A stretch of 64,000 bases of DNA from Omnitrophica bacterium GWA2_41_15 (lineage in GTDB: Bacteria > Omnitrophota > Gorgyraeia > Gygaellales > Profunditerraquicolaceae), in the NCBI GenBank assembly GCA_919901915.1, contig CAKKQB010000013.1:64192-128191 (forward strand), written 5' to 3'. The position numbers and the translations under genes are program-made. Numbering within the stretch: the stretch's first letter is position 1; every line of letters begins with the position of its first letter. This document shows positions 14,690 to 15,617 of the stretch, in pieces. The notes under the pieces are model-generated. The model saw only the letters and a list, made by a program, of their open reading frames with translations, did not search any database and was not told where the DNA came from.

Positions 14690-14736
14690 CATTTATCCGT
14701 GTATATCCGTTCTTTTATCCGTGTTTATCCGTGTCC
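14690..14736. repeat. B-type array, four ATCCGT(GT) motifs, directly 3' of pilin copy 1
   Basis: catttatccgtgtatatccgttcttttatccgtgtttatccgtgtcc. Confidence 0.85.
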
Positions 14737-15141
14737 TTAATACCCTGACCCCTGCGTTTGTGTTGCCGAACTCCAAACCCTGCCTGTACTTGCGTCATAA
14801 ATCCAACCCGCGGCAGTATTAGCTGCCTCTGCAACGCCTGCTACGACATTCGTACATAACGTATAAGGATTAGCAGGAACTCCATACGCCATAGGCCCGC
14901 CCGGAGAAGACGCTAAAGCCGTTAAGCTTGGCCATGTGGCTGTGCCTGAAACCGCGGTTTTAGCATACCAGATACTCACACCACTGCGCAATCCTCCTAA
15001 TGCCCCTTGCACTGATGACCTTTTAGCATCATTCTGTAAACTAAAAAAAGTTGGAATAGATACCGCCGCCAAAATTCCCAAAATAACAATAACCATAACC
15101 AACTCAATTAAAGTAAAACCGCTTCTCTTGCTTAACCTCAT
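14737..15141 (-). CDS. pilA: major type IV pilin, copy 1
   Basis: Start chosen at ATG 15141 (MRLSKRSG|FTLIELVMVIVILGILAAV) with RBS AAAGGAG 8 nt upstream. The track ORF to 15240 is read-through into the copy 2 tail. Confidence 0.85.
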   Translation of the reverse strand: MRLSKRSGFTLIELVMVIVILGILAAVSIPTFFSLQNDAKRSSVQGALGGLRSGVSIWYAKTAVSGTATWPSLTALASSPGGPMAYGVPANPYTLCTNVVAGVAEAANTAAGWIYDASTGRVWSSATQTQGSGY

Positions 15142-15157
15142 CTTCTTTGCTCCTTTC

Positions 15158-15200
15158 TTGACACGGATTGACATGAATTTATCCGTGTTTATCCGTGTCC
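15158..15200. repeat. B-type unit pair plus inverted CACGGAT, between the pilin copies
   Basis: cttgacacggattgacatgaatttatccgtgtttatccgtgtcc. Confidence 0.8.
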
Positions 15201-15617
15201 TTAATACCCTGACCCCTGCGTTTGTGTTGCCGAACTCCAAACCCTGCCTGTACTTGCGTCATAAATCCAACCCGCGGCAGTATTAGCTGCCTCTGCAACG
15301 CCTGCTACGACATTCGTACATAACGTATAAGGATTAGCAGGAACTCCATACGCCATAGGCCCGCCCGGAGAAGACGCTAAAGCCGTTAAGCTTGGCCATG
15401 TGGCTGTGCCTGAAACCGCGGTTTTAGCATACCAGATACTCACACCACTGCGCAATCCTCCTAATGCCCCTTGCACTGATGACCTTTTAGCATCATTCTG
15501 TAAACTAAAAAAAGTTGGAATAGATACCGCCGCCAAAATTCCCAAAATAACAATAACCATAACCAACTCAATTAAAGTAAAACCGCTTCTCTTGCTTAGC
15601 TTCACTCCCCCCCCCAT
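15201..15617 (-). CDS. pilA: major type IV pilin, copy 2 (mature part identical to copy 1)
   Basis: ATG 15617 gives MGGGVKLSKRSG|FTLIEL. GTG 15605 aligns exactly with the copy 1 ATG (405 nt each). A G9 tract lies between them. Confidence 0.85.
   Translation of the reverse strand: MGGGVKLSKRSGFTLIELVMVIVILGILAAVSIPTFFSLQNDAKRSSVQGALGGLRSGVSIWYAKTAVSGTATWPSLTALASSPGGPMAYGVPANPYTLCTNVVAGVAEAANTAAGWIYDASTGRVWSSATQTQGSGY
15607..15615 (-). repeat. homopolymeric G9 tract (C9 on + strand) at the 5' end of pilin copy 2
   Basis: ttcactccccccccccattct, counted as 9 C. Confidence 0.9.

What the first reader, a model, noticed from the sequence alone, without database searches (positions are those of the whole stretch)
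14714..15598. Perfect tandem duplication of the major pilin gene with divergent translation-initiation regions
Two 421-bp units (14714-15134 and 15178-15598) are identical at every base I could compare. They give two pilins with identical mature sequence. Identity stops exactly at the leader-peptide codons:
- copy 1: AAAGGAG-N8-ATG AGG TTA (MRL...)
- copy 2: ATG-G9-A-GTG AAG CTA

Only copy 2 has a recognisable promoter (TTGACT-17-TATAAT at 15787-15815). So the same protein is expressed from two different initiation contexts. Zero divergence implies a very recent duplication, ongoing gene conversion, or a collapsed or expanded assembly.
Basis: seen in the sequence. Interest (0 to 1): 0.65.

Follow-up and report, generated by a model that had tools for sequence, protein, structure and literature searches.

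The report
Twin pilin genes kept identical
An uncultivated Omnitrophota bacterium carries two back-to-back copies of its main pilus-fibre gene that are identical in sequence but start differently, most likely an old gene pair kept identical by copying between the two, which is a familiar way of maintaining highly expressed duplicate genes.

Summary
Window 14714-15134 and 15178-15598 are identical at all 421 bases, at an offset of 464 bp. The repeat covers two minus-strand type IV pilin genes from leader codon 3 to 23 nt past the stop.

It is not a fresh tandem duplication:
- The 43-bp spacer and both translation-start regions are unique.
- Related Omnitrophota carry the same two-gene arrangement, with copy identity from about 65% to nearly 100%.
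- Three assemblies of this population differ over 16.4 kb only at three nonsynonymous pilin sites, each mirrored in both copies.
- A fourth assembly holds a one-copy hybrid.

The best reading is an older pilin pair homogenised by gene conversion, with copy number changing through recombination. Short-read assemblers can write one collapsed repeat twice. So exact identity and the mirrored SNPs are not independent proof.

It lies inside a frameshifted pseudopilin gene and probably drives both copies. The G-run in front of copy U sits where relatives have G-rich ribosome-binding sites, and it is 9 G in all four assemblies. There is no sign of phase variation.

This is a new member of a known kind, of modest interest. 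Both intergenic hairpins belong to a widespread, apparently undescribed CACGGAT-decamer palindrome.

The parts
15787..15815 (-). Sigma-70-like promoter TTGACT-17-TATAAT with TG before the -10 hexamer. It is the likely promoter for both pilin genes.
   Evidence: 11 of 12 matches. It is one of only three sites in the window scoring 11 or more, all three on the coding strand. Equivalent promoters lie 60-240 nt upstream of the pilin gene in 11 of 16 relatives. In the seven relatives checked where it lies inside a pseudopilin gene, its hexamers overlie in-frame Leu-Thr codons (-35); the L015 sequence also shows the -10 on Leu-Ile-Ile codons.
15651..16057 (-). GspG-like pseudopilin gene split into 81-aa and 54-aa frames by loss of one A in an A-run at 15812-15820. 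The promoter is embedded in it.
   Evidence: relatives have an intact gene of 127-139 aa. Adding one A restores ...KKKILTAKNF.... The frameshift is identical in four assemblies. The rejoined protein weakly matches GspG.
15623..15645 (-). Degenerate CACGGAT-type hairpin in the 5' leader of copy U.
   Evidence: -9.8 kcal/mol, not better than shuffled sequence.
15607..15615 (-). G9 run, probably the ribosome-binding site for the GTG start of copy U.
   Evidence: The length is the same in four assemblies. Relatives have G-rich sites with GTG or TTG pilin starts. Gene callers chose the GTG start.
15201..15617 (-). Pilin copy U. The prepilin is MKLSKRSG/FTLIELV... from GTG at 15605, or MGGGVKLSKRSG/F... 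from ATG at 15617.
15178..15598 (-). Repeat unit, upstream copy: leader codon 3 to 23 nt past the stop codon.
15160..15199 (-). Hairpin after copy U (GGACACGGAU...AUCCGUGUC). Its 5' arm lies inside the repeat and its 3' arm in the unique spacer. No U-tract follows it.
   Evidence: -17.6 kcal/mol, z = -3.4.
15135..15177 (-). Unique 43-bp spacer. It holds the hairpin loop and 3' arm, the AAAGGAG ribosome-binding site (15150-15156), and ATGAGGT of copy D.
14737..15141 (-). Pilin copy D. The prepilin is MRLSKRSG/FTLIELV...
   Evidence: P0001 is 100% identical.
14714..15134 (-). Repeat unit, downstream copy.
14672..14736 (-). Hairpin element after copy D: four CACGGAT-type units plus a partial inverted arm.
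   Evidence: -29.2 kcal/mol, z = -3.5.

Best explanation
This is a real pair of adjacent major type IV pilin genes in the pilus gene cluster of a groundwater Omnitrophota bacterium. The pair is older than this species.

Non-reciprocal homologous recombination (gene conversion) between the copies has made them identical from leader codon 3 to 23 nt past the stop. The conversion is anchored upstream by the conserved N-terminal coding sequence. It is anchored downstream by the two CACGGAT repeat units that follow both genes. Each copy keeps its own ribosome-binding site, start codon and first leader codons.

Both copies are probably transcribed from one conserved sigma-70-type promoter that sits inside the decayed upstream pseudopilin gene. 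The hairpins after each gene lack a U-tract. They probably stabilise the mRNA or attenuate transcription rather than end it completely. Prepilin peptidase cleavage at Gly/Phe gives one and the same mature pilin from both genes.

The net effect is a higher and more robust supply of a single fibre subunit. Reciprocal recombination between the copies changes copy number between 2 and 1. Conversion spreads any new pilin allele to both copies.

Shown: the anatomy, the conserved promoter, the pairs in relatives, the mirrored SNPs and the one-copy contig. Inferred: conversion as the cause of identity, co-transcription, and the dosage benefit.
For: - Identity covers 421 bp while the period is 464 bp. 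The 43-bp spacer and the nine bases upstream of the repeat differ (3 of 9 mismatches next to 0 of 421). A simple duplication cannot produce this.
- Identity holds at synonymous sites too, so it is not protein-level selection.
- Related species carry the same arrangement. L207 has two pilins with different leaders and ribosome-binding sites, identical DNA from about leader codon 5 onwards, and one synonymous mismatch near the 3' end; identity ends at the stop codon. L205 has a second copy that starts ATGAGGTTAAGC, exactly like copy D, and there the two copies are only 76% identical over the last 135 nt. L017 has a pair about 93% identical across the coding region (judged from the windowed identities), with identity starting at the Gly-Phe codons and ending at the stop; L020 has a pair about 65% identical over the same region, again my estimate from those windowed values.
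- Window versus L081: only 4 differences in 16,405 bp, two per copy at mirrored positions (C96R, A107V). Window versus L083: only 2 differences, mirrored (A75D).
- L082 is a one-copy hybrid: the upstream region of copy U, one repeat unit, then the downstream region of copy D. No copy-D-type gene is on record from that sample.
- Promoter conservation in relatives.
- Pilin identity: the N-terminal cleavage/methylation domain scores above the curated cut-off; the predicted structure is a 54-residue helix plus a small beta head; the best structural matches are type IV pilins.
- The gene cluster holds PilC, minor pilins, PilM and a PilB/MshE-type ATPase.
Against: - All four assemblies appear to be short-read metagenome assemblies (inferred from contig names; no read data were available). 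A repeat edge that is collapsed and then traversed twice gives identical copies and mirrored SNPs by construction. Exact identity and the concerted-evolution signal could therefore be partly artefactual.
- Three haplotypes were seen for two copies. Some variation must lie between cells, but copy-specific differences cannot be excluded.
- No transcript data exist. The intergenic hairpin could act as a full terminator, which would leave copy D silent.
- Only three SNPs were found, so the 3:0 nonsynonymous to synonymous ratio is not significant on its own.
- The one-copy contig comes from a k=31 assembly and could reflect low coverage of the spacer.
- Independent duplications in each lineage are less parsimonious but not excluded.
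Confidence: 0.6

Rival explanations
1. The two copies are real but not truly identical. The assembler collapsed two near-identical copies, or a mixture of strains, into one graph edge and wrote that edge twice. The mirrored SNPs between assemblies are then copy-specific or strain-specific variants assigned arbitrarily. True copy number could also be higher than two.
For: - The only differences among three otherwise identical 16.4-kb assemblies lie in the repeat, at mirrored positions.
- The related contig L207 has a scaffold gap with duplicated edges inside its second copy, which shows that assemblers struggle at this locus.
- Contig names indicate SPAdes-type short-read assemblies.
Against: - L207 keeps one mismatch between its copies, so differences are not always erased.
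- Three haplotypes exist for two copies.
- Even under this reading the copies differ at no more than about 3 of 421 sites, which still calls for recent homogenisation.
Confidence: 0.25
2. The duplication is very recent and arose within this population. It has not had time to diverge, and no gene conversion is involved.
For: - Zero divergence between the copies.
- A one-copy form exists in another sample and could be the ancestral state.
- Most of the related Omnitrophota loci examined in detail (13 of 16) have one pilin gene at this position.
Against: - The identical stretch (421 bp) is shorter than the period (464 bp). The spacer is unique and carries a complete ribosome-binding site, ATG and leader of the type typical for this pilin family.
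- The leader of copy D is base-for-base that of the second copy in L205.
- Three mismatches fall in the nine bases next to a 421-bp perfect stretch.
Confidence: 0.1
3. The pair is a regulatory device. The G9 run makes copy U phase-variable through slippage, or the two initiation regions respond to different conditions, so that the cell switches which gene supplies the pilin.
For: - A 9-nt homopolymer lies between an in-frame ATG and the GTG.
- The two initiation regions differ: GTG with a G-run versus ATG with AAAGGAG at a spacing of 8 nt.
Against: - The run is G9 in all four assemblies.
- A change in run length would not shift the frame of a GTG-initiated protein.
- No ribosome-binding site precedes the ATG.
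- G-rich ribosome-binding sites with GTG or TTG starts are common in front of pilin genes in relatives.
- Both products mature to the same protein, so a switch would change only the amount made.
Confidence: 0.07

Closest known systems
Streptococcus sanguinis pilE1/pilE2 (two adjacent major pilin genes)
   Same: Two major pilin genes sit in one pilus locus. Their N-termini are identical, and both proteins are made and assembled into the fibre in comparable amounts (bioRxiv 10.1101/459388, read).
   Different: PilE1 and PilE2 are 78% identical and form a mixed fibre with distinct properties. Here the mature proteins are identical, so the fibre is uniform and only the amount can differ.
Legionella pneumophila pilA1/pilA2
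   Same: [quoted passage not shown]
   Different: The two proteins have diverged. According to that abstract, PilA2 was confirmed on the cell surface, which suggests it alone is the fibre subunit. There is no homogenisation.
Neisseria gonorrhoeae MS11 pilE1/pilE2 and pilE/pilS gene conversion (from my own knowledge; not checked here)
   Same: There are two complete, identical pilin expression genes in one genome. RecA-dependent gene conversion acts on pilin genes.
   Different: The Neisseria loci are not adjacent. Conversion from silent pilS copies creates diversity, whereas here conversion removes it.
Concerted evolution of tufA/tufB in Salmonella and E. coli (from my own knowledge; not checked here)
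   Same: Duplicate genes for a very abundant protein are kept nearly identical by gene conversion, while their flanks and expression signals differ.
   Different: The tuf genes are far apart on the chromosome and encode a translation factor. No copy-number change through pop-out is involved.
Other Omnitrophota tandem pilin pairs found here (L207, L205, L017, L020)
   Same: The position is the same: downstream of pilC, with or without the pseudopilin gene, and upstream of the membrane TPR protein. Each pair has separate leaders. Identity tracts run from the leader/mature boundary to the stop codon.
   Different: Identity ranges from about 65% to 99.7%. Only the window's pair is perfect, and only the window has CACGGAT hairpins and a toxin-antitoxin insertion.

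Membership tests
Type IV pilin (class III signal peptide protein) | A short basic leader ending in Gly, then Phe+1, Glu+5 and a hydrophobic N-terminal helix (the prepilin cleavage/methylation motif). | tested here: met
   The sequence is MRLSKRSG/FTLIELVMVIVILGILAAV. Pfam N_methyl scores 32 bits against a cut-off of 21.2. TIGR02532 scores 31 bits against a cut-off of 16.3.
Type IV pilin (class III signal peptide protein) | [quoted passage not shown] | tested here: met
   The AlphaFold2 model has mean pLDDT 89, a helix at residues 11-64 and three strands. The top Foldseek matches are PilA5, gonococcal pilin, PAK pilin and PulG, though their E-values are weak. By sequence the best solved relative is Vibrio MshA, E = 1e-13 over the N-terminal part.
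Type IV pilin (class III signal peptide protein) | Encoded together with pilus assembly genes (platform protein, ATPase, PilM, minor pilins). | tested here: met
   PilC/GspF lies at 16072-17331, a PilM-domain protein at 8256-9980, an N_methyl protein at 10755-11567, and a T2SSE/MshEN ATPase at 2402-4114.
Major (fibre-forming) pilin rather than minor pilin | It is the abundant subunit of the assembled filament. | not testable with these tools
   This is inferred only from position (directly after pilC and the pseudopilin gene), its own strong promoter, its small size, and conservation of this gene at this position across Omnitrophota.
Simple tandem duplication | The whole repeat period is duplicated, so the identical stretch is at least as long as the period. 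| tested here: not met
   The period is 464 bp and the identical stretch is 421 bp. The 43-bp spacer matches neither flank.
Concerted evolution by gene conversion | Paralogues within a genome are more alike than orthologues between genomes, and their flanks are divergent. | tested here: met
   Identity within the genome is 100% here and 99.7% in L207. Identity between species is 78-81%. The flanks and leaders are unrelated.
Concerted evolution by gene conversion | New variants appear in both copies within a lineage. | tested here: inconclusive
   Mirrored SNPs appear in three assemblies. The same pattern is expected from an assembler that reuses one collapsed edge.
Phase-variable gene (homopolymer slippage) | The tract length varies between cells or strains, and the variation changes the reading frame or promoter spacing. 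| tested here: not met
   The tract is G9 in all four assemblies. It lies upstream of the GTG start chosen by gene callers. Consensus assemblies would hide minority lengths.

The most novel reading that the evidence does not exclude
In a clade of Omnitrophota the tandem pilin pair is a maintained module. Two independently translated cistrons sit behind one promoter that is embedded in a neighbouring gene. Recurrent gene conversion keeps them identical, and recombination toggles them between one and two copies. Because conversion copies each new allele into both genes, the exposed head of the fibre can change quickly while the filament stays uniform. The only polymorphisms in 16 kb are three amino-acid changes in the pilin head. 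These bacteria are thought to use pili to attach to host cells, so this would be a simple system for tuning both dosage and surface variation.
Probability: 0.3. Interest if true: 0.5.

Novelty: new member of a known kind. Interest (0 to 1): 0.3.

Why it matters
Omnitrophota are uncultivated, mostly ultra-small bacteria. Type IV pili are considered central to their proposed host-attached or predatory lifestyle (PMC10066038).

If the pilin pair really evolves in concert, and is the only polymorphic spot in an otherwise clonal groundwater population, then the pilin is a target of selection. That would also give a natural example of homogenisation plus copy-number change acting on a surface fibre gene.

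There is a practical lesson too. Perfect repeats in short-read metagenome assemblies, and SNPs mirrored between their copies, should not be taken at face value.

Tried and rejected
- Exact-sequence look-ups of the window's own two pilins, and of P0001 and P0124, found no contig on record. The cluster listing gave the way in through P0121 and P0125.
- Rfam scans of the locus and of nine metagenome loci carrying the hairpin element gave only sub-threshold generic hairpin matches to microRNA precursor families. No known RNA family matched.
- I considered that the ACGGATA arrays might be protein-binding sites, for a transcription factor or a CsrA-like protein. I set this aside once the element proved to be a long palindrome found in many metagenomes.
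- A test for strand-specific G-U pairing, which would indicate selection at the RNA level, showed no asymmetry: 40 hairpins were more stable on one strand and 51 on the other.
- None of the 80 genome loci around pilC homologues carries the element, so its taxonomic range remains unknown.
- A literature search for the element's sequence found nothing.
- The count of strong sigma-70-like sites in the window is not above the shuffled expectation (3 against 2.3). Support for the promoter rests on position and on conservation in relatives, not on enrichment.
- Unequal crossing-over between the flanking repeat arrays as the origin of the pair was rejected, because it would also duplicate the initiation region.

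Full report
**1. The observation**

Window 14714-15134 and 15178-15598 are identical at all 421 positions. The run cannot be extended by a single base on either side, and there is no third copy in the window (family D1).

Every gene in this part of the window is on the minus strand. Read on that strand, the repeat starts at the second base of leader codon 3 of a small gene. It runs through the whole mature coding region and ends 23 nt after the TAA stop.

I call the copy that is transcribed first U. It runs from GTG at 15605, or from an in-frame ATG at 15617, to 15201. The second copy is D (15141-14737).

Copy D has AAAGGAG, 8 nt, then ATG AGG TTA. Copy U reads ATG GGG GGG GGA GTG AAG CTA. The G run is nine G counting the G of the ATG (15615-15607).

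**2. What the genes are**

Both products carry the prepilin cleavage/methylation motif (…KRSG/FTLIELV…) above the curated cut-offs of Pfam and NCBIfam.

An AlphaFold2 model built on 50 homologues has mean pLDDT 89. It shows a 54-residue N-terminal helix and a small three-stranded head. Its best structural matches are type IV pilins and PulG, although the scores are weak. The best solved relative by sequence is Vibrio MshA.

The surroundings form a pilus gene cluster:
- PilC at 16072-17331.
- A small GspG-like pseudopilin gene.
- The two pilin genes.
- A membrane protein with TPR repeats.
- Minor pilin candidates.
- A PilM-domain protein.
- A response regulator and a PAS-kinase-PilZ protein.
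- A PilB/MshE-type ATPase.

Homologues and related loci place the organism in Candidatus Omnitrophota. Type IV pili are widespread in that phylum and are thought to serve host attachment (PMC10066038).

**3. Not a simple or fresh duplication**

The period is 464 bp but only 421 bp are identical. The 43-bp spacer (15135-15177) matches neither the sequence upstream of U nor the sequence downstream of D. The nine bases upstream of the repeat differ at three positions (GTGAAGC versus ATGAGGT). Unequal crossing-over or replication slippage would duplicate the whole period, including the initiation region.

The spacer is also not random filler. It holds a complete ribosome-binding site, an ATG, and the MRL leader that the closest homologues also have.

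**4. Related genomes**

Among the 16 related Omnitrophota loci examined in detail around pilC, the usual order is pilC, pseudopilin (127-139 aa, sometimes absent), one pilin, then the membrane TPR protein (L206). Tandem pairs recur, however:
- L207 carries the 79%-identical pilin P0003. It has pseudopilin, pilin 1 (MRLNRRSG…), a 34-nt spacer with its own GGAGG site, and pilin 2 (MRLSRRSG…). The two copies are identical in DNA from about leader codon 5 up to a scaffold gap. After the gap there is one synonymous mismatch, and identity ends at the stop codon.
- L205 carries the 81%-identical pilin P0002. The contig begins with the 3' end of an upstream pilin gene. A 35-nt spacer follows, then a second pilin starting ATGAGGTTAAGC, base for base the leader of copy D, followed by the TPR gene. 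There the two copies are only 76% identical over the last 135 nt, as far apart as either is from the window's pilin.
- L017 has a pair about 93% identical across the coding region (my estimate from the windowed identities), with identity starting at the Gly-Phe codons and ending at the stop. L020 has a pair about 65% identical over the same region, again my estimate from those windowed values.

The two-gene arrangement is therefore older than the window's species. The pairs span the range from diverged to identical. The identity tracts are bounded by the leader/mature junction and the stop codon. That is the signature of homogenisation between paralogues, not of a single recent duplication.

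**5. The same population in other assemblies**

The 90% cluster of the pilin has six members on three contigs, and each contig carries one MKL… and one MRL… protein.
- Two of these contigs (L081 from ERZ1292640, and L083 from ERZ1292638) match the window base for base over 16,405 bp, with very few exceptions.
- L081 differs at four positions, two in each copy at mirrored sites 464 bp apart (C96R and A107V).
- L083 differs at two mirrored positions (A75D).
- All three changes are nonsynonymous and lie in the head domain.
- If SNPs fell uniformly, the chance that all three land in the 421-bp unit is about 2e-5. This is my own calculation.
- A fourth contig (L082; Logan assembly of SRR32696707; 980 bp) is a one-copy hybrid. 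It has the upstream region of U with G9 and GTG, one repeat unit with the R96/V107 alleles, and then the downstream region of D running into the antitoxin gene. No D-type gene is on record from that sample.
- This hybrid is exactly the product expected from reciprocal recombination between the two copies. Alternatively it could be the ancestral one-copy state.

**6. The caveat**

All of these appear to be short-read metagenome assemblies (inferred from contig names; no read data were available).

The junction from the end of one repeat unit through the spacer into the start of the next can only exist in a genome with at least two copies. Related species show the pair independently. So the duplication itself is real.

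A 421-bp repeat is longer than the assembler's word length. It is resolved by traversing one graph edge twice, after small bubbles have been removed. That procedure alone produces two identical copies, and it also produces differences between assemblies that are mirrored in both copies.

The mirrored SNPs are therefore compatible with two readings. One is concerted evolution. The other is a few copy-specific or strain-specific variants assigned arbitrarily.
- Three haplotypes for two copies mean that at least some variation lies between cells.
- L207 shows that assemblers can retain a mismatch between copies. Its scaffold gap shows that they struggle at this locus.
- Even in the worst case the copies differ at no more than about 3 of 421 positions, next to completely unrelated flanks. 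So recent homogenisation is still required.

**7. Expression signals**

All three lie on the coding strand, and the other two are intergenic, 100-200 nt upstream of gene starts. The count itself is not above the shuffled expectation.

Eleven of 16 relatives have TTGACA-17-TAnnAT (10 to 12 of 12 matches) 60-240 nt upstream of the pilin start. In the seven relatives checked where the promoter lies inside a pseudopilin gene, the -35 hexamer lies in frame with the coding sequence. In the example read out (L015) it is the Leu-Thr codon pair and the -10 hexamer falls on Leu-Ile-Ile codons.

In the window that pseudopilin gene is broken into 81-aa and 54-aa frames exactly at the -35 hexamer, by loss of one A from an A-run. 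The frameshift is the same in all four assemblies. The promoter remains near-consensus.

No promoter-like site lies in the 59-nt gap between U and D. Co-transcription of the two copies is therefore the simplest reading, but it is an inference.

After each stop codon there is a stable hairpin without a following U-tract. The first is 15160-15199 (-17.6 kcal/mol, z = -3.4). The second lies within 14672-14736 (-29.2 kcal/mol, z = -3.5). In L206 the corresponding position holds a hairpin of a different sequence followed by seven T, that is, a canonical terminator.

**8. The G-run**

Pilin genes of relatives commonly have G-rich ribosome-binding sites and GTG or TTG starts. Examples are L004 (GGGGGG…TTG) and L007 (GGGGGCGGGTGTG).
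- Gene callers chose the GTG start for copy U in all three assemblies.
- No ribosome-binding site precedes the ATG.
- The run is nine G in all four assemblies.
- A change in run length would not shift the frame of a GTG-initiated protein.

I therefore read the run as the ribosome-binding site of copy U and see no evidence for phase variation. Consensus sequences would hide minority tract lengths.

**9. Mechanism proposed**

One promoter drives two cistrons with separate initiation regions. One mature pilin results after cleavage at Gly/Phe. The main effect is a greater and more robust pilin supply.

Gene conversion keeps the copies identical. It is anchored 5' by the conserved N-terminal coding sequence and 3' by the two shared CACGGAT units. 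Reciprocal recombination yields one-copy and possibly multi-copy variants. Dosage as the selective benefit is inferred, not shown.

**10. Comparison with known systems**

Adjacent major pilin paralogues are known:
- Streptococcus sanguinis PilE1/PilE2 are 78% identical and both are assembled into the fibre.
- Legionella has PilA1/PilA2.

Identical pilin expression loci in gonococcal strain MS11, and gene conversion that keeps tufA and tufB alike, are precedents from my own knowledge.

The case here is a new member of that kind, in a little-studied phylum. It is not a new mechanism. I score interest at 0.3.

**11. Side finding**

The ACGGATA arrays around the pilin genes (25 matches against 6 expected) are local, partly degenerate copies of a palindromic element built from 10-nt CACGGATnnn units.

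The typical form is three units, a loop, and the three units reverse-complemented. The predicted stability is -45 to -66 kcal/mol.

The element is absent from Rfam at any useful score and from the searchable literature. In the window it sits at every junction of the rearranged locus: upstream of U, between U and D, between D and the inserted toxin-antitoxin pair, and after that pair. That placement suggests it offers homology for recombination.

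Noticed in passing
window 15623-15645, 15160-15199, 14672-14736, 13986-14043, 8209-8254, 57378-57455 (all minus strand); metagenome loci L084-L203: A palindromic element built from tandem 10-nt CACGGATnnn units. The typical form is three units, a loop, and the three units reverse-complemented, with a predicted stability of -45 to -66 kcal/mol. There is no Rfam family and no paper containing the sequence. It is absent from the 80 pilC loci of other genomes. No strand asymmetry in folding energy was found.
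   Followed up: partly
window 15651-16057 (frameshift at 15812-15820): The GspG-like pseudopilin gene between pilC and the pilin genes is split into 81-aa and 54-aa frames by loss of one A in an A-run. The frameshift is identical in four assemblies. Both halves are otherwise open, and the break falls exactly on the -35 hexamer of the pilin promoter. L004 also has a split copy. This could be a pseudogene or a case of slippage-dependent expression.
   Followed up: partly
window 14123-14634: A MazF/PemK toxin gene (110 aa) and a DUF2281-like antitoxin gene (64 aa) are inserted between the pilin genes and the membrane TPR gene. CACGGAT arrays flank the pair on both sides. None of the related loci inspected here has this pair at that position.
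   Followed up: partly
window 12476-13969: A 497-aa multi-pass membrane protein with C-terminal TPR repeats is conserved directly downstream of the pilin gene across many of the related Omnitrophota loci. No family was assigned to its membrane part. Its position resembles that of pilin-modifying enzymes encoded next to pilA in other bacteria; that comparison comes from my own knowledge and was not tested.
   Followed up: no
L206 2233-2295; L207 after the second pilin gene (about 1640-1720): In related species the pilin gene is followed by a different hairpin built from short tandem units (ATAGGCGATAGGCT...). In L206 it ends in a run of seven T, which makes it a canonical terminator. The design is the same as in the window but the sequence differs.
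   Followed up: no
window pilin residues 75, 96, 107 (L081 and L083 positions 8224, 8286, 8320, each also at +464): Residue 96 is the only cysteine of the mature pilin, and it is replaced by arginine in the L081/L082 haplotype. This pilin therefore has no disulfide-bonded C-terminal loop.
   Followed up: no
window 2402-6670: Downstream in the same cluster lie a PAS histidine kinase fused to a PilZ domain, a stand-alone receiver protein, and a PilB-type ATPase with an MshEN (c-di-GMP-binding) domain. This suggests control of pilus assembly by cyclic di-GMP.
   Followed up: no
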